From an uncultured Collinsella sp. (GTDB taxonomy: Bacteria > Actinomycetota > Coriobacteriia > Coriobacteriales > Coriobacteriaceae): 64,000 bases of DNA. The notes under the pieces were generated by a model. That model was not told where the DNA came from. It saw nothing but the letters and a program-made list of their open reading frames with translations, and ran no database searches. The stretch is taken from the NCBI GenBank assembly GCA_900543605.1, contig UQSK01000001.1:23720-87719 (forward strand), read 5' to 3'. Both the position numbers and the translations under genes were made by a program. This document shows positions 1,914 through 51,186 of this stretch, in pieces; positions within the stretch are counted from its first letter, which is position 1, and the number at the start of each line of letters is the position of its first letter.

Positions 1914-2891
1914 TCATCCCCCTCGGCCGTCATCCGTCGCATCTTCGGCGATGCGCTCGAATACGCGGGCGAGCGCTATCGCCGTTCGGATGCTGCCGAG
2001 GTCGAACCGCATCGTTCTCCCCGAACGGCTCCTCGCCCCACCGAGCGTCGATCCGTTGATGCGCCGCTCTACGCCCTTATCGCTTCGCTTGAGACTCTGC
2101 GATTTGTATCTGAATTGCGTGTCGCCGCCCTTTGATAGCGTCATCGTTATGCCGTCCTGCGCGAGCCTGCGCGCAAGCTCGCGTGGTCTGTTGTCGCAGG
2201 AAGGAAGCTTCGACACCTCGTCCGCGCGTACGGCGATTCTCTCACGAACCCGGTCATTCTCGGAGCGATGCGACCTGTCGCGTCGCTGCCACTCGCGTTC
2301 CGCACGGGACGGCTGGCGTGCATGCTTCTTGGCATTTGACCCGCGTTCGAGCTGGCGAAGACCGTACCGCTCGTCAAGCTCGCGGACCGTCTTCACGCGA
2401 GCCCTCGCCGCCGCCCTGACCCCTCCCTCGTCCAAGCGCCTGCCCGTTTCAAGGTCGGTTCGGTTGATGGCGACGTGCACCGCGTATCGCTCTACGCCAT
2501 CCGTCTTGCAGCGTTCCTTATGGAGCACCCAGAAACATTCTTGATTGGGATACCGGGCGGCAACGTAGTCGCGAGCATACTCCATACACCGCAATGGCGT
2601 CATTACGCCGCCGTTGACGTCGCAATCGTCCGGATTGAATGCGAGGCACTGGTGTTCGAGGTAACGGCAGGCGCAATTCGCCTTGCCCGGCCGGTTGTGG
2701 CCATATGCTTCACGCGTCGCGTCCATCTCGCGCATGCAGGAGCGGGCGCTTTCCGTCCTCGTGAGGTTCTGCGTGCCGTGATCCAGCACTTTGCCCCTGT
2801 CCCAGTCGAGGTAGGACTCCAACCGCTTGAGATGGCTCCTGCTCTTCACGGTTACCTGTTTAACGACTGTCAACGAAAGCGCTCCATTCAT
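1914..2891 (-). CDS. relaxase/mobilization nuclease (MobA/VirD2 family)
   Basis: 325 aa. The segment ERYAVHVAINRTDLETGRRL matches the histidine-triad region of the relaxase/mobilisation nuclease domain. The gene sits downstream of and overlaps the T4CP gene, in a mobilization gene context. Confidence 0.75.
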   Translation of the reverse strand: MNGALSLTVVKQVTVKSRSHLKRLESYLDWDRGKVLDHGTQNLTRTESARSCMREMDATREAYGHNRPGKANCACRYLEHQCLAFNPDDCDVNGGVMTPLRCMEYARDYVAARYPNQECFWVLHKERCKTDGVERYAVHVAINRTDLETGRRLDEGGVRAAARARVKTVRELDERYGLRQLERGSNAKKHARQPSRAEREWQRRDRSHRSENDRVRERIAVRADEVSKLPSCDNRPRELARRLAQDGITMTLSKGGDTQFRYKSQSLKRSDKGVERRINGSTLGGARSRSGRTMRFDLGSIRTAIALARVFERIAEDATDDGRGG

Positions 2892-4737
2892 CGCTAACCT
2901 GTTGCCCTTCCGGATTTCCGGTTTCAGGCCACTCAGGGCACCACGTCATCACCGTCATGTCGCGTTGCGCAGCGGCCTCGTCAAGGCGTTTCTGGTAGGC
3001 GCGCCGTTTCTCGCGCTCGTGCTCGGGAGTGCCGAGGCCGAAATGCCCCCGCGTCGGGGTCTTCGTGCAGTCGACGAGAGGGGTGCAGAAAACGCCCGCA
3101 CGGCTCTTGTCTAGCCCGTTCTCTGCCTGCTTCACGACGATCGCGCCGTCCTTGTCGGGGCTCCTCGTCACCCATTCGAACTGCCGTATAACATCATCCG
3201 CATGCTCCGAGTAGCTTCGCGAGCTCGATGAAGACGCGCCCTTGCTAGAGCTCGTTCCCATGACATGGCGGGTGGTCTTACCCACAAGCTCCGTGAAGTA
3301 CTGCCTATCCTCAGCTTCCCCGAGCTTCAGCGCGACCTTCACCGAGCAGTTCGCCAGTATCTTCTTGCGGCCATCGCGCTCCCCGTACTTATTAAGCTGC
3401 GCGATGTTCTGAACGCTGCCTATCCACGTGATCCCCAGCGAGCGGGCGAGCGAAAGGAGGGAAGGCAGTGACTGGACGGTGGGAAGGTTACCCCACTCAT
3501 CGCCGAGGATATCGAGGCGACGCGGAAGCGCGCCGCCGTTCTCGTCAGCGACCAAGTAGGATGCCTTGTAGATCTGATCGAATAGGATTGTGAACAGCGC
3601 GTTATAGGGGCTCCCCTCATCCATGACATGGAGGAAGAGCGCCGTCTTCTCGGAGAGGATCCTCTTCGGATCGATATCGCTCGCCGAGGTGAGCCATGCG
3701 ATGCCCCGAGAGGAGAACATTCGGAGGTGAACCTTGAGCGTCGAAAGGATGCTGCGCATTTCGTTGCCGCCACTGCTGAGGAACTGCGATGCGAAGGGGC
3801 GCGCGGGATGGTCATAGGGCAGGGAGCGGAGGAGCGACTTGAGCGCTATGGCGGGATCGTCGCCATCGCCCTCGGTGCCCTCGTTGATGATGCGGCATAC
3901 GGTCGCCATGTGGCGCGCTTCGTGCGGGCATTCGGTTGAAAAGGCTACGAGCAGCAAGACGGAGGCGAGGATTCCGCGTGCGCTGGTGACCCAATGTGAA
4001 CTCTGCCCAGCACGCTCTTCGGGCACTATCGCCGAAGCTACGTCCTCCGCCGCCTGTTGGGCATTTTGCTCGTCGCCTTTGTCGGCGTAATCGCACACGA
4101 GCTTAAGGGGGTTGAAGCGCGAACCCCGCGCGGGATGCTGGGTATCGAGCAGCAGGACTGCGTATCCTCGCGCGGCTATGGCGTCTCCGCATAGCTCGAT
4201 CAGTTCATTTTTAACGTCTGAGACTATAACGTTGTCTCCGCCCTCTCCAAAGGTGAGGAGGTCGAGCGTCGGGATGTTCTGGAACCTTGTCTTTCCTGAT
4301 CCGGTTTGGCCACATGTGAGCACATGGCGCTTCGACTCATAGAGATAGCGGCCTTTGGTGAAGCCGTACACATAGCCCCGCGACTTCGGCTCGCTCTTAC
4401 CATCCCACGTCTCGGAGCCGCGTATGACCTCCGCGCCCGTCTTTACACGCGCCTCGCCGAGAACGCCGCCGTCATCGGCACGCCTGCTCGCGGCGTCCGT
4501 GAGAAAGAACAGGAGGGAGGAGAGCAGGGAGAAGATGAAGATGGCAAAGACCCCCACCGGGCAGTCGGCGAACGAACCAGAAAGCCACCACGTCGGAATC
4601 GCCGCAACGTCGAACCACGGAATAGCTGTTGGCATGCCTACGCCCGAGATAAGGCTGTCCGCAACCTGCGCGTAAGCGGGAGAGATGAAGAGCGTGAGAG
4701 CAAGAGCGGCTATGAGGGAGGGAATGAGAGGCTTCAC
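2860..4737 (-). CDS. type IV secretion coupling protein (VirD4/TraG family)
   Basis: 625 aa with an N-terminal signal/TM region. Walker A is CGQTGSGKT. The TraG/VirD4-like core includes LDILGDEWGNLP. The start overlaps the MobC stop codon. Confidence 0.85.
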   Translation of the reverse strand: MKPLIPSLIAALALTLFISPAYAQVADSLISGVGMPTAIPWFDVAAIPTWWLSGSFADCPVGVFAIFIFSLLSSLLFFLTDAASRRADDGGVLGEARVKTGAEVIRGSETWDGKSEPKSRGYVYGFTKGRYLYESKRHVLTCGQTGSGKTRFQNIPTLDLLTFGEGGDNVIVSDVKNELIELCGDAIAARGYAVLLLDTQHPARGSRFNPLKLVCDYADKGDEQNAQQAAEDVASAIVPEERAGQSSHWVTSARGILASVLLLVAFSTECPHEARHMATVCRIINEGTEGDGDDPAIALKSLLRSLPYDHPARPFASQFLSSGGNEMRSILSTLKVHLRMFSSRGIAWLTSASDIDPKRILSEKTALFLHVMDEGSPYNALFTILFDQIYKASYLVADENGGALPRRLDILGDEWGNLPTVQSLPSLLSLARSLGITWIGSVQNIAQLNKYGERDGRKKILANCSVKVALKLGEAEDRQYFTELVGKTTRHVMGTSSSKGASSSSSRSYSEHADDVIRQFEWVTRSPDKDGAIVVKQAENGLDKSRAGVFCTPLVDCTKTPTRGHFGLGTPEHEREKRRAYQKRLDEAAAQRDMTVMTWCPEWPETGNPEGQQVSDEWSAFVDSR

Positions 4738-5120
4738 GCAACCACCTCCCCGTTTCGAACGACCACGAGGGCTGCGGCAACCGCGTCAGCTGCGGCGGAC
4801 ACGCGCTGTATGGCGGCGGACACGCGCTCTTCTGAGCAGCCCTTCTGGCCGTAGGTGTTCAAGGCGCGTGCGCATTGGTTGATGTTCGAGCCCGCGCGCT
4901 TGAGATTCGCGTAAGCCTTCTTCAGTTCGTCGGCGTCAACGTTGATCGTGCACACGCCCTTAGGGTCGTTAAGCGCGCGGAAGCGCATATAGGCGGACAT
5001 GCCGATGCCTGCCTTGCGAGCGCGGGATTTGATGCGCTGATACTCGCGATGTGTCACGCGGACGTCAATCCTGAGTACTCGTCCGCGCGTCCTGGCTTGC
5101 CGATTGTTTTCATTATGCAT
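4734..5120 (-). CDS. MobC-family relaxosome accessory protein
   Basis: The internal ATG (complement 5120-5118) gives MHNENNRQARTRGRVLRIDVRVTHREYQRIKSRARKAGIGMSAYMRFRAL, a ribbon-helix-helix-like MobC pattern. The gene is first in the mobC-T4CP-relaxase order. Confidence 0.7.
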   Translation of the reverse strand: MHNENNRQARTRGRVLRIDVRVTHREYQRIKSRARKAGIGMSAYMRFRALNDPKGVCTINVDADELKKAYANLKRAGSNINQCARALNTYGQKGCSEERVSAAIQRVSAAADAVAAALVVVRNGEVVA

Positions 5121-5280
5121 GGTCGTAGTCCTTGGTCGTTGTGGCAGAGCCTGTGGCAATTTCTGTGGCAACTCATCGGCTACCGTGAATTACCACAGGC
5201 TCCCTAGAACTACTTCCCGCTACCATTTTCGCAGGTAGATGCTACCTTGACTTTCCTCTGTTACCGTGGGATTCTACGTC

Positions 5281-5333
5281 CGAGGGCTCTCATAACCCGG
5301 AGGTCGTAGGTTCAAATCCTGCCCCCGCGACCA
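5281..5333 (+). other. 3' half of tRNA-fMet(CAT) without a 5' half: putative attR core of the integrated element
   Basis: CTCATAACCCGGAGGTCGTAGGTTCAAATCCTGCCCCCGCGACCA matches the anticodon loop, the GGG/CCC initiator stem, the T-arm and the acceptor-CCA of bacterial initiator tRNA (compare the E. coli fMet 3' half). There is no CGCGGGG 5' acceptor strand upstream, and a 2-nt disruption occurs in the anticodon stem-loop at about 5287. Confidence 0.7.
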
Positions 5334-5342
5334 AGAACTTGC

Positions 5343-5373
5343 AGCTCGTCGGCCTAGCCGGCGAGCTTTTTTG
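5343..5373 (+). terminator. rho-independent terminator (native tRNA terminator)
   Basis: Stem AGCTCGTCGGC / GCCGGCGAGCT followed by a T6 run. Confidence 0.7.
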
Positions 5374-5422
5374 TTATTTCGGGACCGTGTTTTCGGTTCA
5401 ATTCTCGGCCTCTCAATCAAAG

Positions 5423-5721
5423 ATCTCGATCTGTAACATCTAGACCCGATTTGGGCGGCTAGGTGTTACAGATCGAGATATACCGGTGGGTTGGGTCGTG
5501 TTTGTCTAAATCTGTAACACGAGGGACGGATTTTGCCGAGTTGTTGTTATAGATTGAGATTTTCTAGCAGGCGGGTTTGGTTTGTCTCGATCTGTAACAG
5601 ATAGGGGCCAAAAGTGGGCCTAGCTGTTACAGATCTAGATTGTTGAGGATGGGCCGAGAGGAATGTCTCGATCTGTAACAGTAAGACCCAGTTTTGCCGC
5701 GTAACTGTTACAGATTGAGAT
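5423..5721. repeat. tandem array of four ~81-nt hairpin units (eight 16-nt repeats in alternating orientation)
   Basis: GTCTCGATCTGTAACA occurs at 5423, 5504, 5584 and 5665. Its inverse TGTTACAGATCGAGAT occurs at 5464, 5545, 5625 and 5706. All loops are 25 nt and the inter-unit gaps are 23-24 nt. The loops are also related to each other (GACCCGATTTGGGC, GACGGATTTTGCC, GACCCAGTTTTGCC). Confidence 0.85.
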
Positions 5722-5861
5722 AAACCGACGGGCCGCCCCGCCCATCCCCATCCACCTGCCGCTACCTGCTGTCCGCCGATTTCCGTTGCGCTGCTGTATT
5801 CCCATGCCATATCCTCTAGATAACTACGCGGCATCATCGCCGCCGCGCCTACAAGAGAGGA

Positions 5862-7898
5862 ATGTCCATGACCGCACCTGCATCCAAGCTGCTCCAGCCC
5901 ATTACGGTTGGCCCCCTTGAGCTCAAAAACCGCATTATGTTTCCGCCGCTGACCACCGGCTACGAGGAGCGCGACGGTTCCATCGGCGAGCGCAGCCTGG
6001 CCTTTTACGAGCGTCTGGCCCGTGGCGGCGTGAGCTACATCGTCATCGGTGACGTTGCCCCCGTCATGACCGCAAGCCCCACGCCCAAGCTGGCGACCGA
6101 CGCCCAGATCCCCACGTTTAAGGCCCTGGCCGACACCGTCCACAAGCACGGCGCCAAGGTCGCGCTGCAGCTGTTCCACCCCGAGTACGACGTGCCCGGC
6201 GTCGGCCGCATGGTCATGGGATCCATGGCCGCCGCCAAGGCCGCGCAGGAGGCCAAGGCCGCCGGCGACGAGGAGACCTTTGCCGCCAAGATGGCCGAGT
6301 CCAACGAGATCCGCAACCAGGCCTACGCCAAGCTGCACCACGACATGCAGCACTTTGTGAACGAGGCGAGTGTGGAGCAGCTCACCCAGATCAAGGAGGC
6401 CATCGCTGCCTCGGCCGCTCGCGCACAGCAGGCCGGGATCGACGCTATCGAGGTCCACGGCGACCGCCTGGTGGGTTCGCTGTGCTCGGCCATCCTCAAC
6501 CAGCGCACCGACGAGTACGGTGGTTCGTTCGAGAACCGCGTTCGCTACGCGCTGGAGGTCGTCGCCGCCATTAAGGAGGCCGCGCCGCAGCTGATGGTGG
6601 AGTACAAGCTCCCCGTGATCATGGAGAACCCCGACGGCACGCCGCGCGGCAAGGGTGGCCTGCAGCCCGACGAGGCCTGCGAGTTCGCCAAGCTGCTCGA
6701 GGGCGCGGGCATCGATATGATTCAGGTCGCACAGGCCAACCACACCGGCAACATGGGCGACACCATTCCGCCCATGGGCGCCATGCCCTACAACTGGACG
6801 CTGCCCGTGGCCGAGCGCGTCAAGGCCCTGGTCTCCGTGCCGGTGGCAACCGTGGGCCGCGTGGTTTCGGTCGAGGCCGGCGAGAAGATTCTGGAAGACG
6901 GCGCCGCCGACATCATCGCCTATGGCCGCTCGCTCATGTGCGACCCCGACATTGCGCTGAAGGCCGCCACGGGTGAGCCCATCCGCGAGTGCCTCAACTG
7001 CAACAAGGGCTGCGTCGATGCGATTCAAAATCGCAAGTACATCTCGTGCGTGCTCAATGCCGAGAATGGCGATGAGGCAACCATCGCCATTAAGCCGGGC
7101 GAGGGCGACAAGAAGATCGCCGTGGTGGGCGGCGGCATCGCCGGTCTGGAGGCCGCGCGCGTGGCGGCCAAGCGCGGCTACGACGTGACCGTCTACGAGG
7201 CGAGCGATCATCTGGGCGGCCAGATTGTGCTGGCGGCCGCGCCTCCGCGCAAGGACGAGATCATGCGCTCGGTCGAGTACTACGAGAAGATTCTGCCCGG
7301 CCTGGGCGTGAAGGTCGAGCTCAGTCATGCCGCTACCGCTGAGGACCTCAACGCCGCCGACGCTGCGATTGTGGCCGTAGGCGCGCACGACGTGGTCATC
7401 CCCGTTCCGGGTGCCGATTCGGAGAAGGTCGTCTCGAGCTGGGACGTACTGGCCGGCAAGGTGGAGCTCAGCGGTCGCGTCGCCGTCATTGGCGGTGGCC
7501 TGGTGGGCACCGAGACTGCCGAGTACCTGCTGCAGCACGGCTGCGAGGTGGCGATCGTGGAGATGCTCGACAAGATTGCCGCGGGCGAGTCCGAGACCAT
7601 TCTGCCGCTGATCATGAGCGACTTTGCCGAGCACAACGTGGAGCAGCACGTGAAGACCCGCCTGACCGCCATTACCGACGAGGGTGTGGAGGCTGTTCGC
7701 ACCATCGAGGACGGCGCCGAGGAGCCGGTGAAGATCGCCTGCGATTACGTGGTGATGGCCGTGGGCTCCAAGGCCAACGCGTTTGACCTGGACGGCGTGA
7801 CGGTGCCCGTGACCTGCGTGGGCGACTGCTCGGGTGAGCGCACCGCCGACATTGCGAGCGCCATTCGCACGGCGTATCACGCGGCCAACGAGCTGTAG
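5862..7898 (+). CDS. NADH:flavin oxidoreductase (Old Yellow Enzyme domain) fused to an FAD/NAD(P)-binding domain: 2-enoate / 2,4-dienoyl-CoA reductase family
   Basis: 678 aa. The N-terminus ITVGPLELKNRIMFPPLTTGY is OYE-like. The 4Fe-4S motif CLNCNKGC...C is present. A Rossmann motif VVGGGIAGLEAA and a second motif VIGGGLVGTE follow. The start may be the second ATG at 5868, which has better spacing to GAGAGG. Confidence 0.85.
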   Translation: MSMTAPASKLLQPITVGPLELKNRIMFPPLTTGYEERDGSIGERSLAFYERLARGGVSYIVIGDVAPVMTASPTPKLATDAQIPTFKALADTVHKHGAKVALQLFHPEYDVPGVGRMVMGSMAAAKAAQEAKAAGDEETFAAKMAESNEIRNQAYAKLHHDMQHFVNEASVEQLTQIKEAIAASAARAQQAGIDAIEVHGDRLVGSLCSAILNQRTDEYGGSFENRVRYALEVVAAIKEAAPQLMVEYKLPVIMENPDGTPRGKGGLQPDEACEFAKLLEGAGIDMIQVAQANHTGNMGDTIPPMGAMPYNWTLPVAERVKALVSVPVATVGRVVSVEAGEKILEDGAADIIAYGRSLMCDPDIALKAATGEPIRECLNCNKGCVDAIQNRKYISCVLNAENGDEATIAIKPGEGDKKIAVVGGGIAGLEAARVAAKRGYDVTVYEASDHLGGQIVLAAAPPRKDEIMRSVEYYEKILPGLGVKVELSHAATAEDLNAADAAIVAVGAHDVVIPVPGADSEKVVSSWDVLAGKVELSGRVAVIGGGLVGTETAEYLLQHGCEVAIVEMLDKIAAGESETILPLIMSDFAEHNVEQHVKTRLTAITDEGVEAVRTIEDGAEEPVKIACDYVVMAVGSKANAFDLDGVTVPVTCVGDCSGERTADIASAIRTAYHAANEL

Positions 7899-8921: not shown

Positions 8922-11804
8922 ATGACGCTACTGTATTTCCTTACCCTGTTTCCGCTGGTACCGGCGCTGGGCATGCTGCTCGCGCGCGGTGACCGCGCCC
9001 GCGATGCGGTGGGGCTCATAGGCTCCGGCATTATTATGGCGGTGACAGTTGTAGTCGCCGTCATGTTTTTTGGCACGGGTCCGCAGAGCTTTGAGGTTGC
9101 CTCCGGCACCTCGCATGTGCTCTCGATCATCAGCTCCGCCATCGATGTCATCCTGTGCGCCGTCATCCTGTACAACGCGTACAAATATAGGAACGCGCTC
9201 ACCATGGTGCTCGGCATGGTCCAGCTGGTGGGCTCGCTCGCCTTTGCAGCCATGACGCTGCCCGCGGCCGAAGCCGTCACGGCGACGCCGCTCTACCTGG
9301 ACTACATGAGCGTGATCATGGTCCTCGCCGTCGGCATTGTTGGCAGCCTCATCTGTGTGTATGCCCTGGGCTACATGAAGGACTTCCAAGCGCACGACGA
9401 GCACGAGGCCGCGCTGCGCGGGCAGACCGCGCCCGACCGTCGCCCGCAGTTCCTGGCGCTCATGTTCCTGTTCCTCTCGGCCATGTTCGTCATCGTGACG
9501 AGCGACAACCTTGAGTGGCTGTTCTGCGGCTGGGAAATCACCACCGTGTGCTCGTTCCTTATGATTGGCTATACGCGCACGCCCGAGGCCATCAAGAACG
9601 CCTTTACCCAGATTATCCTCAACATGCTGGGCGGCATCGCGTTTTTGGTGGGCCTTATGTTCTTGCACCTTAACGGCATGCCGCTGACCATCTCGGGCAT
9701 GATTGAGCTTTCCGGCGCCGGAACCGCGCAATCCGCGCTGCTGGTGATGCCGGTCGTTCTGCTGTCGCTCGCCGCGCTCACCAAGGCCGCACAGATGCCG
9801 TTCCATACCTGGCTGCTCGGTGCTATGGTTGCCCCCACGCCCACGAGCGCCCTGCTGCACTCGTCAACCATGGTCAAGGCCGGCGTGTTCCTGATGGTCA
9901 AGCTGAGCCCGCTCTATGCCATCTATCCCGTGACTGGCTTTATGGTCACGAGTGTGGGTGCCATCACGTTTTTGCTCGCCGCCCTCATGGCCATCTCGCA
10001 GAGCAACGCCAAACGCGTGCTCGCGTACTCCACCATTTCCAACTTGGGCCTCATCAGTGCCTGCTTGGGTGTCGGCGCGCCCGAGGCCGTGTGGGCCGCC
10101 ATCTTCCTGATCCTGTTCCACACGGTGGCCAAGTCGCTGCTGTTCCTGTGCGTGGGCACGGCCGAGCATCATATCGGCAGCCGCAATATCGAGGACATGG
10201 ACGGTATGTTCAGCCGCATGCCGCATCTGACGCGTCTGATGATGCTGGGCATCATGGGCATGTTCGTGGCGCCGTTTGGCATGCTCGTGTCCAAATGGGG
10301 CGCCCTGGTGGCGTTTGCCCAGACCGGCAACGTGCTCATGATCATGGTGCTGGCCTTTGGCTCGGCCGCGACGTTTTACTTCTGGGGCAAGTGGCTTGCC
10401 AAGCTTTCGGGCGTCGACCCCACGGCTCAAAACGTTGAGGTCAATGTCCATAAGACCGAATGGATGGCGCTCAACACCATCGCCGCGCTGCTGATTCTGT
10501 GCTGCGTGGCGTTTCCGGTTATCTCGAGCGGCCTGGTGTCGCCTTACTTGGCCATGGTGTTTGGCCGCGTGCCGTACGTTATTGGCAAGGACGCCATGTA
10601 TCTGATGGTGGTTATCGTGGCGTTTATCGCCGTGGTGCTGCTGACTTCATTCCGCGTGAGCAACAAACCACACGTAAACGTATATCTTTCGGGTGTGGGA
10701 ACCGACAATTACCGCCATTTCCGCGGCTCGATGGGACACGAGGTGAAGGCCGAAAAGCGCAATTGGTACTCGGAGGACGCCCTTGGCGAGAAGCGTATTA
10801 GCCCCGCGGGTAGCGTCGTGTGCTGCAGCATTATCTTGTTTGCGCTGCTGTGTTGCGCGTGGATTGGGCCCGAGAGACTTGCCATGAGCGCGCCCTCGGT
10901 GCTGCGCGGCAAGTATTTTGAAGGTTCGGGCGTCGTGGGCATCTTTATTGGTACCGTGGCGTTTGCCCTGATTGCGCCGCTTGTGGGCGGCCTGATCGAC
11001 GGCGTTGACCGTAAGCTTTCGGCTCGCATGCAGGGCCGCGTGGGCCCGCGCTTGCTGCAGCCCTTCTACGACGTTGCCAAGCTGCTGCGCAAGGCCCCTG
11101 CCAGCGTAAACACCATGGACGATACCTACATGGCGTGCGCGCTCATCTTTACCGTGGTGGGCGGCGGCATCTTTGTGTCGGGCTCCAACACGCTGCTGTG
11201 CGCCTTTATGGTGACGCTCGCCGCGATCTTTGTGGTGCTGGCGTCCGCCTCGACGCAAAGCCCGTTTGCCCAGGTTGGCGCCGATCGCGAGTTGCTGCAG
11301 GTCATGAGTTACGAGCCCGCCGTTCTGCTGATGAGCGTGGGCCTGTATCTTGCCACCGATAGCTTCGATTCCATTGCCGTGACGGGACAGTCGGCCCCCA
11401 TCATCGTGTACAGCGCGCCCATTTTCTTCGCGCTGCTCGCGGTGCTTACCATCAAGCTGCGCAAGTCGCCGTTTGACCTTTCGTACTCGCATCACGCGCA
11501 TCAGGAGATCGTCCAGGGCGTCGCCACCGAGATGAGCGGCGGCACGCTGGCAAAGATGACCCTTATGCACTGGTGCGAGACCGTGCTGTTTTTGATGTGG
11601 GTGGGCATGTTCTTTGTTTGGGACAACCCGGTGAGCTGGGTCGTAGCCCTGGTCGTGATGGCCGCGACGTATTTTGTCGAGGTGCTGATCGACAACACCT
11701 TCGCACGCAGCACCTGGCGCAGCTGCTTTAAGCTCGGATGGGGCGTGGCGCTGGTGTTTGGCCTGCTCAACCTTATGCCCATCCTCGTCGACGTGTTTAT
11801 TTAG
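8922..11804 (+). CDS. echA-echB fusion: fused Ech hydrogenase membrane subunits: NuoL/antiporter-like EchA domain (about aa 1-630) plus NuoH/HycD-like EchB domain (about aa 665-960)
   Basis: A single uninterrupted 960-aa ORF. The N-terminal two thirds is a polytopic proton-conducting transporter-like region (WLLGAMVAPTPTSALLHSSTMVKAGVFL). The C-terminal third carries the NuoH/HycD hallmark RMQGRVGPRLLQPFYDVAKLLRK. Confidence 0.8.
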   Translation: MTLLYFLTLFPLVPALGMLLARGDRARDAVGLIGSGIIMAVTVVVAVMFFGTGPQSFEVASGTSHVLSIISSAIDVILCAVILYNAYKYRNALTMVLGMVQLVGSLAFAAMTLPAAEAVTATPLYLDYMSVIMVLAVGIVGSLICVYALGYMKDFQAHDEHEAALRGQTAPDRRPQFLALMFLFLSAMFVIVTSDNLEWLFCGWEITTVCSFLMIGYTRTPEAIKNAFTQIILNMLGGIAFLVGLMFLHLNGMPLTISGMIELSGAGTAQSALLVMPVVLLSLAALTKAAQMPFHTWLLGAMVAPTPTSALLHSSTMVKAGVFLMVKLSPLYAIYPVTGFMVTSVGAITFLLAALMAISQSNAKRVLAYSTISNLGLISACLGVGAPEAVWAAIFLILFHTVAKSLLFLCVGTAEHHIGSRNIEDMDGMFSRMPHLTRLMMLGIMGMFVAPFGMLVSKWGALVAFAQTGNVLMIMVLAFGSAATFYFWGKWLAKLSGVDPTAQNVEVNVHKTEWMALNTIAALLILCCVAFPVISSGLVSPYLAMVFGRVPYVIGKDAMYLMVVIVAFIAVVLLTSFRVSNKPHVNVYLSGVGTDNYRHFRGSMGHEVKAEKRNWYSEDALGEKRISPAGSVVCCSIILFALLCCAWIGPERLAMSAPSVLRGKYFEGSGVVGIFIGTVAFALIAPLVGGLIDGVDRKLSARMQGRVGPRLLQPFYDVAKLLRKAPASVNTMDDTYMACALIFTVVGGGIFVSGSNTLLCAFMVTLAAIFVVLASASTQSPFAQVGADRELLQVMSYEPAVLLMSVGLYLATDSFDSIAVTGQSAPIIVYSAPIFFALLAVLTIKLRKSPFDLSYSHHAHQEIVQGVATEMSGGTLAKMTLMHWCETVLFLMWVGMFFVWDNPVSWVVALVVMAATYFVEVLIDNTFARSTWRSCFKLGWGVALVFGLLNLMPILVDVFI

Positions 11805-43380: not shown

Positions 43381-43429
43381 GCCCCAAACCACCACAAAGG
43401 TGCCTGTCCCCTTTGCGGTGGTTTGGGGC
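43381..43429 (+). terminator. 20-bp-stem hairpin after the DUF4867-like gene (CCACCACAAAGG hairpin family)
   Basis: GCCCCAAACCACCACAAAGG-N8-CCTTTGCGGTGGTTTGGGGC. A related hairpin occurs in the mgtA leader (55423-55450). Confidence 0.6.
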
Positions 43430-49863: not shown

Positions 49864-51186
49864 TTAGTCGTCCTTGTCGTCTTTCATGACAACGGTGGTC
49901 TCGGTGTGGCTGAAGGTGTCGTGCTTCTCGGTCAGGTTGAGCTCGCCACAATACTCATCGGCATGGGTTGCTTCGTTGGCCGTCTTGAGCTGGCCTACCA
50001 GCAGCACGTCTCCGATGATTACGATGATCAGCGGCGCAATGATGTTGATGAGGATGCCCTCGATATCAAAGGTGAGGTAATCCGGATCGAAGGCGTATTC
50101 CCCCATAAAGAGAATCTGGGAGAGGATAAATCCGATCACAAAGAACAGCACCGAGGCGATGGCGAGCTTGGGCTTGGAGCAGGGGAGCTCGCCGACCAAG
50201 CGGCCGGTCTGGCCGTTCATGGCAAACAGGTAGCTCTTGCCGTTCCACGAGGTGGAGAGCATCCAGACGGGGAACAGGGCGTAGTCGCTGTCTTCCCAGG
50301 TGTAGTCGAGCTGCTTGCTTTCGACCGTGGCATCGTCGTATTCGTCGACGACGGTCTCGCGCAGGGCCGAGATCGTGCTTTCTTCCATACGGCGCTCGGC
50401 GCGCGCCTTGCAGGTCTCGCAGTCCTCGTCGTAACGGTTGGCGATGTAGCCGGGCATATATGCGACCGAGAACGGGCGCAGCGCGTCGTAGTCAAACGGC
50501 TCGATGGCATCCATGTGGCCGTCGGGCATCTTGGACGATCCGTCGACGGGCACGCGCTTAAACGAGATATTGCCCTTGCGATAGGCATCGTAGTGGTCGG
50601 TGGTCGTGACGGTGCGGTCGGATTCCTCGGTCACGGTCTCGTTGGTCGCGTCAAAGTACACTTCGCCGTCAACGCGGGCGCCGTAGAGCCAAAACGGCAC
50701 GTAGACACCTTGGACCTCGTCGATGTGGTTGCCGGTGACAAAGCTCTTGGGCAGCAAGATCTTGCCCTTGTAGTGTTCCTTGAGTGCGGCCGTGACGTCA
50801 TCGCGCCCGAGCTTAAACGGAATTACTAGGTCGGGCGAGAAGTCGCCCGAGAGCTGGCCGGGCGCCACGGCGGAGTTGCCGCAGTACGGGCAGGTGGTGA
50901 CGGCGACGGTGCCGTCGGACACGAGCTCGGCGCCGCACGACGAGCAGATGTAGCCGGCGTTTTGGGCGAGCTCCTGCACCGCGTCGTCGGCGACGGGCTT
51001 GGGCGTTGCGGCTGCCGCATCGGCTTTGGCGTCGGCCTTGTCCTGGCGCTCGCGATAGAGGGCCTCGACTTCTTCGACTTCAAAGCGCGAGTCACAGTAG
51101 TCGCAGACGAGCTTTTGCTCGGCACTGGCAAAGTGAAGGGGGCCGCCACACGCGGGGCATTGATAGTTGACGCTCTCGAAGGCCAT
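49864..51186 (-). CDS. double zinc-ribbon membrane protein (YdjG-like)
   Basis: The N-terminal CPACGG...CDYC and CSSCGA...CPYCGN ribbons are followed by a ~250-aa soluble domain and two C-terminal TM helices. Confidence 0.65.
   Translation of the reverse strand: MAFESVNYQCPACGGPLHFASAEQKLVCDYCDSRFEVEEVEALYRERQDKADAKADAAAATPKPVADDAVQELAQNAGYICSSCGAELVSDGTVAVTTCPYCGNSAVAPGQLSGDFSPDLVIPFKLGRDDVTAALKEHYKGKILLPKSFVTGNHIDEVQGVYVPFWLYGARVDGEVYFDATNETVTEESDRTVTTTDHYDAYRKGNISFKRVPVDGSSKMPDGHMDAIEPFDYDALRPFSVAYMPGYIANRYDEDCETCKARAERRMEESTISALRETVVDEYDDATVESKQLDYTWEDSDYALFPVWMLSTSWNGKSYLFAMNGQTGRLVGELPCSKPKLAIASVLFFVIGFILSQILFMGEYAFDPDYLTFDIEGILINIIAPLIIVIIGDVLLVGQLKTANEATHADEYCGELNLTEKHDTFSHTETTVVMKDDKDD

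What the first reader, a model, noticed from the sequence alone, without database searches (positions are those of the whole stretch)
5423..5721. Highly regular array of eight 16-nt repeats in alternating orientation (4 x 81-nt hairpin units) between attR and the enoate-reductase gene
GTCTCGATCTGTAACA and its reverse complement alternate every 40-41 nt. The loops are exactly 25 nt and the gaps are 23-24 nt. This gives four potential 16-bp-stem hairpins with a period of 80-81 nt. The loop sequences are related to one another as well.

The regularity is CRISPR-like, but the alternating orientation and the similar spacers argue against CRISPR. The array sits immediately after the integration site of a mobile element and about 140 nt upstream of a reductase gene. 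Possible explanations are:
- an array of operator pairs, with a centre-to-centre distance of about 4 helical turns;
- a tandemly amplified small RNA or terminator;
- hairpin substrates for a ssDNA recombinase or transposase.
Basis: seen in the sequence. Interest (0 to 1): 0.6.

Follow-up and report, generated by a model that had tools for sequence, protein, structure and literature searches.

The report
Dispersed hairpin repeat family in Collinsella
The regular array is real, but it is one of about 22 copies of a non-coding hairpin repeat scattered between ordinary genes of Collinsella gut bacteria, resembling the REP/REPIN/BIME repeats of other bacteria rather than a switch for the neighbouring gene.

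Summary
Window 5424-5720 holds four hairpin units. Each is the arm TCTC[G/A]ATCTGTAACA, a 25-nt loop and the inverted arm, with a period of 80-81 nt.

The array is not a local device:
- The same genome has 53 such units in 22 intergenic arrays of 1-5 units.
- 32 of 36 sampled species of the genus (Collinsella, by record titles) carry 33-122 arms each; other genera of the order carry 0-1.
- Neighbouring genes are unrelated housekeeping genes in every orientation.
- The array upstream of the reductase is present in all 30 orthologous loci examined, with 1-6 units. Whole units are lost, gained, swapped and once inverted.
- It lies downstream of a tRNA-Met whether or not the mobile element is inserted.

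Arms are near-invariant, while loops keep only their length and a few positions. The two arms do not covary.

Best reading: a clade-specific REPIN/BIME-like palindromic repeat family whose arms are kept by sequence-specific recognition. RAYT-like Y1 genes exist, but none examined is flanked by the repeats. Membership of the REP-RAYT system is therefore not shown. I found no description in print.

The parts
5420..5725 (.). Whole array: four hairpin units with weakly conserved outer flanks ((T/A)(T/A)TG before each left arm, CA(A/T)(A/T) after each right arm)
5424..5478 (.). Unit 1 (type A in my labelling): arm 5424-5438, 25-nt loop 5439-5463, inverted arm 5464-5478. Both arms match the consensus exactly
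   Evidence: DNA fold -21 kcal/mol, z -8.9
5479..5504 (.). Linker 1, 26 nt, variable
5505..5559 (.). Unit 2 (type B): arms 5505-5519 and 5545-5559 (2 mismatches each), loop 5520-5544
5560..5584 (.). Linker 2, 25 nt
5585..5639 (.). Unit 3 (type C): arms 5585-5599 and 5625-5639, loop 5600-5624 with an AAAA centre, inverted relative to the other three loops. 14 of the 30 orthologous loci have a type-C loop (<=6 of 25 differences from this loop)
5640..5665 (.). Linker 3, 26 nt. Contains GAGAGGAATGTC, which recurs at the reductase ribosome-binding site or start (5855-5866)
5666..5720 (.). Unit 4 (type D): arms 5666-5680 and 5706-5720, loop 5681-5705
5289..5336 (+). 3' fragment of tRNA-Met(CAT), the likely att core at the end of the integrated mobilisable element. 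A context feature, not part of the repeat
   Evidence: No tRNA found by ARAGORN in the window. Contigs of relatives diverge before 5289 and after 5336 (table 7). Intact tRNA-Met in 6 of the 11 orthologous loci scanned
5343..5367 (+). Terminator-like hairpin followed by a T run, downstream of the tRNA fragment
5727..5746 (-). Terminator-like hairpin on the minus strand, abutting the right end of the array
   Evidence: consensus scan only
5862..7898 (+). Neighbouring gene: Oxidored_FMN + Pyr_redox_2 flavoprotein (enoate/2,4-dienoyl-CoA reductase type). The true start may be the second ATG at 5868
   Evidence: the start is inferred from the sequence

Best explanation
The array is one locus of a dispersed, non-coding, palindromic repeat family confined to one clade of the genus Collinsella.

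Anatomy. The building block is a 55-nt (about 63 nt with weak flanks) hairpin module. It has two inverted copies of TCTC[G/A]ATCTGTAACA around a loop of fixed length (25 nt), with TAG...TTT...CTA at fixed loop positions. Modules are strung head to tail with 25-26-nt linkers, so arms alternate in orientation every 40-41 nt, as REPs do in E. coli BIMEs and as REPIN clusters do in Pseudomonas.

Shown:
- The family is genome-wide, intergenic and indifferent to the neighbouring genes.
- This particular array is an old resident of the tRNA-Met/reductase spacer. It is independent of the mobile element inserted in the tRNA.
- Arrays change between close species by loss, gain, exchange and occasional inversion of whole modules.
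- Arms stay near-invariant while loops have drifted to about half identity. The two arms of a module vary independently.

Inferred:
- Module turnover comes from recombination or replication slippage/template switching between the 15-20-nt arms (direct pairs give deletion or duplication, inverted pairs give loop inversion).
- The arms persist because each arm is recognised sequence-specifically by a trans-acting factor, and not merely because the stem must pair. The most likely factor is a DNA-acting protein, and the only candidates identified are the RAYT-like Y1 (HUH) proteins with a C-terminal extension encoded in these genomes.
- Any effect on the reductase (mRNA structure or stability, read-through from the tRNA) would be a side effect of position.
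For: Copy number and layout:
- 105 arms at <=2 mismatches in the 1.97-Mb genome, against 0 for the reversed control.
- 53 complete modules in 22 arrays (sizes 1:4, 2:9, 3:6, 4:2, 5:1). Every array starts with a + arm and ends with a - arm.
- Loop = 25 nt in 413 of 417 modules. Linkers are 25 nt (159), 26 nt (95), 24 nt (7) and 37 nt (2) of 263.
- The arm 16-mer has 26 copies. After I set aside adapter-like words, only one other repeat family's 16-mer is more abundant (30 copies).

Distribution:
- 32 of 36 same-genus genomes hold 33-122 arms; 21 of 24 genomes of other genera hold none and 3 hold one each.
- The shorter core pattern gives 0 hits in the four arm-less congeners and 40 modules in G021.
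- 67 of the 80 listed public records are titled Collinsella.

Context:
- No array overlaps a convincing ORF. By crude ORF calls, about 9 arrays are convergent, 6 divergent, 6 tandem and 1 unclear.
- 32 of 39 flanking ORFs have Pfam hits, and these are unrelated functions (ClpB, GH1, DeoR, LacI, EF-Tu, Nramp, glycogen phosphorylase and others).

Orthology and turnover:
- All 30 orthologous loci have the array, with 2 arms (2 loci), 4 (3), 6 (14), 8 (9), 10 (1) or 12 (1).
- Module patterns include A-B-D, A-B-C, D only, A only, D-B-D and an inverted D loop in L190.
- Two other arrays also differ in unit number between species.
- One array present in G021 is absent from the window's genome, and another is reduced there to one arm plus loop.

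Constraint on arms:
- In a logo of 385 unique modules, 13 of 15 arm positions are >=95% invariant.
- Orthologous diversity is 0.035 in arms against 0.071 in loops, measured at one locus.
- No two of 52 loops are identical (maximum 23 of 25), although 35 arms are exact consensus.

No pairing selection in arms:
- At position 5 the pair counts are GC 104, AT 87, AC 87, GT 84.
- At position 4 there are 0 double changes among 364 modules.

Candidate enzyme:
- One Y1_Tnp gene in the genome (39.4 bits; 41.7 bits in the six-frame genome search). Its best NCBIfam hit is 'REP-associated tyrosine transposase' (65 bits).
- All 33 arm-bearing genomes sampled have at least one such gene.

Likeness to REPINs. 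The published description reads: two invariant 16-mers in inverted orientation, a less conserved spacer of fixed length, and ordered tandem clusters (PMC3116915, passages read). BIMEs are described as regularly spaced REPs in alternating orientation (PMC2817692, abstract in the listing).
Against: Defining REP-RAYT features fail:
- No arm, and no copy of three other repeat families, lies within 1.5 kb of any of 12 Y1 loci examined.
- The commonest 16-mer within 400 nt of the genome's own Y1 gene has 3 copies.
- In the near-complete G021 the two Y1 genes (0.78 and 0.89 Mb) are more than 170 kb from any array.
- A single arm has no self-complementarity (0 kcal/mol), unlike a classical REP.
- The NCBIfam score is below the curated cut-off (65 against 80), and there is no sequence match in the PDB.
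- Y1 genes also occur in 2 of the 4 arm-less congeners and in 7 of 24 genomes of other genera.

Mobility is not shown:
- There are no identical modules at different loci.
- There is no target-site duplication.
- Most arrays sit at conserved sites.
- The one clean presence/absence difference is bounded by two copies of another hairpin repeat, so it may be a deletion.

The lack of covariation fits a double-stranded protein site as well as it fits single-strand recognition. All sampled arm-bearing species are close kin (95-97% identity in the listed matches to the query that spans the spacer and the first ~1 kb of the reductase gene), so counts across them are not independent.
Confidence: 0.6

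Rival explanations
1. Arrays of double-stranded binding sites for a clade-specific host protein (nucleoid-associated, chromosome-organising or a global regulator). Each arm is a half-site, sites lie 40-41 bp apart on roughly one face of the helix, and A/T tracts sit at the loop centre and at the arm flanks.
For: - Arms are conserved as sequence and show no compensatory change.
- Spacing is strict: 25-nt loops in 413 of 417 modules and linkers of 24-26 nt in 261 of 263.
- A TTT sits at the exact centre of the loop and A/T-rich flanks lie beside the arms.
- Arrays sit at conserved loci, with no sign of recent transposition.
- Arms evolve about half as fast as loops at this locus.
Against: - No candidate protein was identified.
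- Arrays occur in all kinds of spacers, including between convergent genes, and vary freely in unit number between close species. This is odd for a needed site.
- Arms almost never occur singly: 3 singletons at <=2 mismatches against 22 arrays. A monomer site would not require this.
- Four congeners do without the arms.
Confidence: 0.2
2. RNA-level elements. Arrays are co-transcribed with neighbours, and their 20-25-bp stems act as processing sites (for example for RNase III), as stabilisers against exonucleases, or as terminator aids.
For: - Predicted structure is very stable (RNA z -12.4).
- Contigs from RNA libraries join the array to the reductase gene (X10: one contig spans 5423-7000; X1 and X3: contigs span 5307-5695 and 5691/5667-7000).
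- Arrays often lie next to terminator-like hairpins.
- There is weak covariation inside the loops.
Against: - The arms show sequence conservation without covariation, which a purely structural RNA does not need.
- Modules sit in either orientation within one array, and loop orientation flips.
- The RNA-library contigs total about one genome's length (2.4 Mb read for X1), so cover here does not prove transcription. Contigs give no ends or strand.
- There is no Rfam match.
Confidence: 0.12
3. [quoted passage not shown] The arms are its terminal inverted repeats, and arrays arise from repeated insertion next to an earlier copy.
For: - The terminal inverted repeats are 15-20 nt with a variable interior.
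- The outer flank tends to TG...CA.
- The family is dispersed and intergenic.
Against: - There is no target-site duplication at any offset (0-7) or length (2-8) tested on 146 arrays.
- No arm pair brackets a transposase. In G021 all 100 arm places listed, of 108 at <=1 mismatch, lie in arrays at 39-41-nt steps, longer only where an intervening arm is not among those listed.
- The strict 25-26-nt linkers are not expected from independent insertions.
Confidence: 0.05
4. A local regulatory device of the reductase gene, or a part of the integrated mobile element.
For: It lies 141 nt upstream of the gene and 88 nt downstream of the att-like tRNA fragment. A 12-nt word of linker 3 recurs at the gene's ribosome-binding site.
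Against: - There are 21 other arrays beside unrelated genes.
- The array is present in relatives that have an intact tRNA-Met and no element at that place.
- Unit number varies from 1 to 6.
Confidence: 0.03

Closest known systems
[quoted passage not shown]
   Same: - Two near-invariant ~16-mers in inverted orientation around a less conserved spacer of fixed length.
- A long predicted hairpin.
- Extragenic and strongly over-represented.
- Ordered tandem clusters.
- Largely vertical persistence at conserved sites.
- A RAYT-like Y1 gene is present in the genome.
(PMC3116915, passages; PMC5581495, passages.)
   Different: - A single arm is not itself a palindrome.
- No Y1 gene is flanked by the repeats.
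- There are no compensatory changes between arms.
- Most modules sit in arrays (18 of 22 arrays have 2 or more units), whereas in SBW25 most REPINs are single.
- There is no population of identical 'master' copies: loops are all different.
- The module is shorter (40 nt between arm starts, against 71 in the Pseudomonas GI type).
BIMEs (bacterial interspersed mosaic elements) of enterobacteria
   Same: - Regularly spaced repeats in alternating orientation separated by two kinds of linker (here 25-nt loops and 25-26-nt linkers).
- Variable unit number between strains.
- A mosaic with another motif: a second hairpin family adjoins 6 of 22 arrays.
(BIME description from the abstract of PMC2817692, seen in the listing.)
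   Different: - The repeated word is a plain 15-20-mer and not a GC-rich stem-loop.
- Binding by IHF, gyrase or Pol I, known for BIMEs (recalled), is untested here.
- The host is an actinobacterial gut anaerobe and not a proteobacterium.
Neisseria intergenic mosaic elements (short dRS3 inverted repeats separating variable RS segments); recalled, not checked in a paper here
   Same: A short conserved word recurs at regular intervals between variable segments in intergenic DNA, with recombination between the words.
   Different: The words, sizes and host all differ. dRS3 is a target for phage or IS integration, whereas only 7 viral contigs hold this module, and in 5 of them it lies at or near a contig end.
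CRISPR arrays
   Same: Regular spacing of a conserved short repeat with variable intervening segments of fixed length.
   Different: - Repeats alternate in orientation.
- The 'spacers' are related to one another and conserved between species.
- There are 22 short arrays beside housekeeping genes.
- I made no dedicated search for cas genes.
MITEs (Correia, RUP, Nezha and similar)
   Same: A small non-coding element with terminal inverted repeats, dispersed in intergenic DNA.
   Different: No target-site duplication, no autonomous partner seen, and a strictly periodic tandem arrangement.

Membership tests
REPIN / REP-RAYT system | Short sequence strongly over-represented and confined to extragenic space | tested here: met
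   105 arms against 0 for the control. The arm 16-mer has 26 copies, second only to one other repeat family's 16-mer (30) once adapter-like words are set aside. All 22 arrays lie between ORFs.
REPIN / REP-RAYT system | Two copies in inverted orientation around a spacer, able to form a hairpin; doublets far commoner than singlets | tested here: met
   53 complete modules against 3 lone arms at <=2 mismatches. DNA fold of unit 1 is -21 kcal/mol, z -8.9.
REPIN / REP-RAYT system | Each REP is itself an imperfect palindrome (classical REP, often with a GTAG/CGTC tag) | tested here: not met
   The 21-nt arm folds at 0 kcal/mol, no better than shuffles. No GTAG or CGTC tag appears in the consensus.
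REPIN / REP-RAYT system | A single-copy RAYT gene flanked by the cognate repeats (abundant flanking 16-mers) | tested here: not met
   No arm or other repeat family lies within 1.5 kb of 12 Y1 loci. The top flanking 16-mer of the genome's own Y1 gene has 3 copies. In G021 the Y1 genes are more than 170 kb from any array.
REPIN / REP-RAYT system | A RAYT-type Y1 (HUH) protein encoded in the genome | tested here: inconclusive
   PF01797 scores 39.4 bits (41.7 bits in the six-frame search), above its cut-off of 23. NF047646 'REP-associated tyrosine transposase' scores 65.3 bits, below its cut-off of 80. An HxH motif and a Y..NP motif are visible in the translation (that they are RAYT-like is recalled).
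REPIN / REP-RAYT system | Compensatory changes keep the hairpin | tested here: not met
   Arm positions 4 and 5 vary independently of their partners. Only weak, register-shifted covariation appears inside the loops.
REPIN / REP-RAYT system | Evidence of within-genome replication or excision | tested here: inconclusive
   No identical modules exist. Loops are nevertheless related across loci: 22 pairs share 19 or more of 25 positions, against about 1.4 expected. One presence/absence difference was found. No raw-read population data were available.
BIME | Regularly spaced repeats in alternating orientation with defined linker classes, and variable unit number | tested here: met
BIME | Units are REP stem-loops bound by IHF, gyrase or Pol I | not testable with these tools
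   Protein binding cannot be tested here. The stem-loop part is not met.
MITE (DDE-type) | Terminal inverted repeats plus a target-site duplication, and a related autonomous IS | tested here: not met
   The inverted repeats are present, but there is no duplication and no arm pair around a transposase.
CRISPR | Direct repeats, unique spacers, and an associated leader and cas genes | tested here: not met
   The orientation alternates. The spacers are related and conserved. I ran no cas search.
Rfam RNA families | A match to a curated covariance model | tested here: not met
   Four microRNA-model hits, all far below their gathering scores.

The most novel reading that the evidence does not exclude
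The arms are the sites of an unrecognised, clade-specific DNA-transaction system that is not RAYT-linked. A protein would recognise the 15-17-nt word and catalyse or provoke deletion, duplication and inversion between arms. That would make it a shufflon-like recombination system acting on non-coding modules. Alternatively, it would organise phased nucleoprotein arrays at about 20 chromosomal sites. This would explain why the arms stay invariant while loops drift, why arms do not covary, why the unit and spacing are so exact, and why no transposase gene sits beside the repeats.
Probability: 0.15. Interest if true: 0.65.

Novelty: new variant of a known kind. Interest (0 to 1): 0.4.

Why it matters
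Collinsella aerofaciens and its relatives are abundant human gut bacteria, and their many near-identical 'species' are hard to tell apart. A family of about 20 variable-number arrays per genome gives ready strain markers. It is also a likely cause of the contig breaks seen in the RNA-library assemblies.

REP/REPIN biology has been worked out almost wholly in Proteobacteria. Here is a look-alike in an actinobacterial anaerobe that has conserved arms, drifting loops and no transposase next door. It is a clean case for asking what keeps such repeats alive: a distant Y1 enzyme, a host binding protein, or recombination alone.

For the gene next to it the practical message is negative. The array should not be read as a dedicated regulator of the reductase or as part of the mobile element.

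Tried and rejected
- Tandem Repeats Finder found nothing because the units are too diverged.
- Rfam at E<=1 gave only sub-threshold microRNA hits.
- ARAGORN found no tRNA in the window; the tRNA piece is a fragment.
- The test for target-site duplications was negative.
- Searches for the repeats beside Y1 genes were negative. The PDB sequence search with the Y1 protein gave no hit.
- The reductase protein gave no match at E<=1e-50 in the four arm-less congeners, so I could not compare their orthologous spacer.
- Seven viral contigs hold a module, and in 5 of them it lies at or within a few hundred bases of a contig end. I read these as host flanks of prophage calls and did not examine them further.
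- RNA libraries are kept only as contigs. Cover of the array is compatible with transcription but proves nothing, since the contigs amount to about a whole genome. Run X14 shows no cover over 5393-5777, which shows nothing either.
- In G021, arrays split 10 and 10 between the two halves defined by dnaA at 1.77 Mb, with none between 0.52 and 1.06 Mb. I draw no conclusion from this.
- I looked at loop T-tract orientation against gene direction by eye only. It is mixed within arrays, and I made no formal test.
- One script timed out; I redid the work with blastn.
- Earlier-findings look-ups returned nothing for this sequence or genome. The word search listed repeats of other architectures in other genomes (7-8-nt word arrays linked to a small nuclease gene). 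I did not test that lead here.
- Literature searches for Collinsella with terms for palindromic, REP, REPIN, MITE or hairpin repeats found no description. The one paper opened for this (PMC8040213, passages) mentions Collinsella only for a ribosomal-protein leader. PMC3733652 has no mention of Actinobacteria or Collinsella. Subscription journals and supplements were not searched.
Full report
**1. The observation**

Window 5424-5720 contains eight copies of TCTCGATCTGTAACA (0-2 mismatches) in strictly alternating orientation, with starts every 40-41 nt. There are no other copies in the 64-kb window. Chance expectation is 0.70, and 0 of 100 shuffles reach eight. The repeat finder gives four 67-nt direct copies at 81/80/81 nt and inverted pairs with stems up to 21 nt.

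With 15-nt arms, the loops are exactly 25 nt and the linkers 25-26 nt. The strand folds far better than shuffles (RNA -151.5 kcal/mol, z -12.4; DNA z -11.1), as it must by construction. The description is correct.

**2. It is not unique to this place**

- The window's genome (1.97 Mb, 95 contigs, 60% G+C) has 105 arms at <=2 mismatches, against 0 for the reversed control.
- These form 53 complete modules (arm, loop, inverted arm) in 22 arrays of 1-5 modules. Every array begins with a + arm and ends with a - arm.
- The loop is 25 nt in 52 of 53 modules here, and in 361 of 364 modules in 132 loci from public genomes.
- Linkers are 25 or 26 nt in 254 of 263 cases.
- After I set aside adapter-like words, the arm 16-mer (26 copies) is second only to one other repeat family's 16-mer (30 copies) and ties with a third family's.

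**3. Taxonomic range**

Of the 80 rows listed, 67 are titled Collinsella (uncultured Collinsella sp., C. aerofaciens). The rest are 'uncultured bacterium' or similar bins, plus one bin titled Acutalibacteraceae.

In a draw of relatives, 32 of 36 same-genus genomes have 33-122 arms at <=1 mismatch. Four have none. Of the 24 genomes from 23 other genera of the order, 21 have none and 3 have one each. A shorter core pattern finds 0 modules in those four congeners and 40 in the positive control G021.

The arm-bearing species are close kin: the listed matches to a query spanning the spacer and the first ~1 kb of the reductase gene are 94-97% identical. Counts across them are therefore not independent.

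**4. Anatomy of the module**

I built a logo from 385 unique modules, each oriented by the T-rich centre of its loop.

- The arms read TCT(C>A,T)(G/A)ATCTGTAACA. The other 13 positions are 95% or more invariant.
- The flanks are weakly (T/A)(T/A)TG on the left and CA(A/T)(A/T) on the right.
- The loop has TAG at positions 3-5, TTT at positions 12-14 (its exact centre) and CTA at positions 21-23. Variable, G+C-rich stretches lie between.
- A single arm has no self-complementarity.
- The module is almost perfectly symmetric. Only the T/A centre of the loop gives it a direction, and that direction is mixed within arrays. In the window the loop of unit 3 is inverted relative to units 1, 2 and 4.

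**5. Context**

No array overlaps a convincing ORF. By my crude ORF calls, about 9 arrays lie between convergent genes, 6 between divergent genes, 6 between tandem genes, and 1 is unclear.

Of 39 flanking ORFs, 32 have Pfam hits. They are unrelated: ClpB, two GH1 glycosidases, three DeoR, LacI, GntR, LuxR, a MalK-like ATPase, glycogen phosphorylase, MurT/CobQ, type III glutamine synthetase, Nramp, a P-type ATPase, a DEAD helicase, EF-Tu, ThiD, a pseudouridine synthase and others. I find no gene association.

A second dispersed hairpin is terminator-like, with 32-34 copies. It adjoins 6 of 22 arrays here and 23 of 132 arrays in other genomes. The family is therefore partly mosaic.

**6. This locus in relatives**

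All 30 orthologous loci (the window's genome plus 29 other species) have an array in the same spacer, 151-156 nt upstream of the reductase start. The arm counts are 2 (2 loci), 4 (3), 6 (14), 8 (9), 10 (1) and 12 (1).

Reading the modules by their loops shows whole-module changes: A-B-C-D (as in the window), A-B-D, A-B-C, A only, D only, D-B-D, extra modules in L181 and L188, and in L190 a D loop in inverted orientation.

ARAGORN finds an intact tRNA-Met(CAT) in 6 of the 11 orthologous loci scanned; where it is found, it stands where the window has only the 3' fragment. In the window, relaxase, coupling-protein and NikA/MobC-like genes run up to that fragment. Contigs of relatives diverge exactly at 5289 and 5336. 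The 'attR' reading therefore holds, but the array belongs to the chromosome and not to the element.

Other arrays behave alike:
- Two single-module arrays of this genome have 2-3 modules in relatives.
- Of 19 G021 arrays, 11 map to an array between matching flanks in this genome.
- One is absent here. That difference is bounded by two copies of the second hairpin family.
- One is reduced here to an arm plus loop.
- The remaining six could not be placed on both flanks.

**7. What is conserved and what is not**

- Among 52 loops of this genome no two are identical. The best pair shares 23 of 25 positions and lies in a segmental duplication. Even so, 22 pairs share 19 or more of 25, against about 1.4 expected from column shuffles.
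- Loops are thus old copies of one ancestor that have drifted to about half identity. By contrast, 35 of 105 arms are still the exact consensus.
- At this locus the pairwise diversity among orthologous modules is 0.035 in arms (0.012-0.034 without positions 4-5) and 0.071 in loops (one locus, related sequences).
- The two arms of a module do not covary. At position 5 the pairs are GC 104, AT 87, AC 87 and GT 84. At position 4 there are 35 and 32+17+17 one-sided changes and no double change among 364 modules.
- Inside the loop there is only weak covariation in shifted registers.

The arm is therefore kept as a word and not merely as half of a stem.

**8. How it most likely works**

Shown: a dispersed, intergenic, clade-specific module family. 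Its arrays are old and change by whole modules, including inversion.

Inferred: recombination or replication slippage/template switching between the 15-20-nt arms produces these changes. The arms persist because something recognises them sequence-specifically.

The nearest described systems are REPINs with their clusters and BIMEs. REPINs are described as two invariant 16-mers in inverted orientation around a less conserved spacer whose length and hairpin capacity matter; they occur singly or as ordered tandem clusters and sit beside RAYT genes (PMC3116915, passages). BIMEs are described as regularly spaced REPs in alternating orientation (PMC2817692, abstract in the listing).

The genome has one Y1_Tnp gene (281 aa, G000:C8:14574-15419). 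Its best NCBIfam hit is 'REP-associated tyrosine transposase', but below the cut-off (65 against 80 bits). Paralogues at 38-56% identity occur 1-4 times in 34 of 36 congeners and in 7 of 24 genomes of other genera. All 33 arm-bearing genomes sampled have at least one, but so do two of the four arm-less congeners.

The hallmark is missing. No arm or other repeat lies within 1.5 kb of 12 Y1 loci. The flanking 16-mers of the genome's own Y1 gene are rare. In G021 the Y1 genes lie more than 170 kb from any array. According to PMC5581495 (passages), only RAYT groups 2 and 3 are tied to abundant flanking 16-mers, so a RAYT-like gene without REPs next door is not unusual, and that cuts both ways. I therefore say that the family works like, and looks like, a REPIN/BIME family. 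I do not file it as a member of the REP-RAYT system.

**9. Rivals**

- A host double-strand binding protein would fit the word-like conservation, the exact spacing and the central A/T tract. It fits poorly with free variation in unit number and with the near absence of single arms.
- An RNA role is possible. RNA-library contigs join the array to the reductase gene. However, those contigs total about one genome's length and give no ends. Sequence conservation without covariation is also not what a structural RNA needs.
- A DDE-type MITE is unlikely, with no target duplication and no autonomous partner.
- A local operator or a part of the mobile element is contradicted by sections 2, 5 and 6.
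- CRISPR is excluded by the alternating orientation and the related spacers.

**10. Novelty and verdict**

Four literature searches found no description of this family in Collinsella or Coriobacteriia. Rfam has no model for it. Only open-access full texts were searched.

It is a new variant of a known kind of bacterial repeat. It is ordinary in being a generic dispersed palindromic element. It is unusual in four ways: its strict periodic arrays, plain (non-palindromic) arms, drifting loops, and the lack of a neighbouring transposase. Interest is moderate (0.4). The boldest reading that the data leave open is a non-RAYT recognition or recombination system acting on the arms (probability about 0.15).

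Noticed in passing
window 43389-43421 (G000:C1:67108-67140) and 31 other places in the genome: A second dispersed hairpin family: stem CCACCACAAAGG / CCTTTGTGGTGG around a conserved 9-nt loop that occurs in both orientations, often with A and T runs on both sides (terminator-like). It has 32 copies, and 7 lie within 100 nt of 6 of the arrays. Two copies bound the one array presence/absence difference seen between G021 and this genome.
   Followed up: partly
L226:318-393 and L226:18553-18657 (G000:C7:32317-32392 and 50552-50656): A third family: a ~70-nt palindromic element with ~21-nt inverted ends beginning GTTGCGGTG. It gives about 30 BLAST matches of 50 nt or more in this genome and many in five relatives, and its 16-mer is the most abundant native one (30 copies). 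It looks more like a classical REPIN than the array does. None lies near the 12 Y1 loci checked.
   Followed up: partly
L226:13249-13351 (G000:C7:45248-45350): A fourth dispersed repeat of about 100 nt, with 14 copies at 72-100% identity in this genome and many in relatives. It contains a short palindrome. Its nature is unknown.
   Followed up: no
G000, all contigs: 124 sites, every one within 200 nt of a contig end; none in the window: The commonest 16-mers of the assembly are library-adapter-like words (I identify them as a transposase-type sequencing adapter from recall). This is untrimmed adapter at contig ends, an assembly artefact that would distort any k-mer repeat survey.
   Followed up: yes
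window 1914-5171 (-) and 5289-5336: The end of an integrated mobilisable or conjugative element: a relaxase-like ORF (weak, below the Pfam cut-off), a type IV coupling protein (625 aa) and a NikA/MobC-like protein. It abuts a 48-nt 3' fragment of tRNA-Met(CAT). ARAGORN finds an intact tRNA-Met in 6 of the 11 relatives' loci scanned, so the element is variably present.
   Followed up: partly
window 5656-5667 and 5855-5866: An exact 12-nt word, GAGAGGAATGTC, occurs both in linker 3 of the array and at the ribosome-binding site or start of the reductase gene. The gene's real start may be the second ATG at 5868, which is better spaced from the GAGAGGA.
   Followed up: no
window 8922-11804 (+): A single 960-aa frame combines Proton_antipo_M (NuoL/Mrp-type antiporter) and NADHdh (NuoH-type) domains. 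It appears to be a fused membrane subunit of a complex-I-like or hydrogenase-type module.
   Followed up: no
G000:C8:14574-15419 (L031:1360-2205) and loci L195-L205: The Y1 (HUH) proteins with a C-terminal extension form a variable paralogue family in the genus, with 1-4 matches per genome and several interrupted by stop codons. This genome's only copy lies just downstream of the rsfS-like gene and has a 99% identical counterpart in only one sampled species (G025). The commoner paralogues are 38-43% identical to it.
   Followed up: partly
G021:C1 (2.26 Mb): The roughly 20 arrays are unevenly placed: none lies between 0.52 and 1.06 Mb, and there are clusters at 1.06-1.08 and 1.83-1.95 Mb. dnaA is at 1.77 Mb. 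There is no obvious replichore bias (10 and 10).
   Followed up: partly
G000:C7:33363-34842: The Nramp transporter gene is bracketed by the repeat family on both sides. This genome has a truncated module on one side and one module on the other. G021 has three modules on each side.
   Followed up: partly
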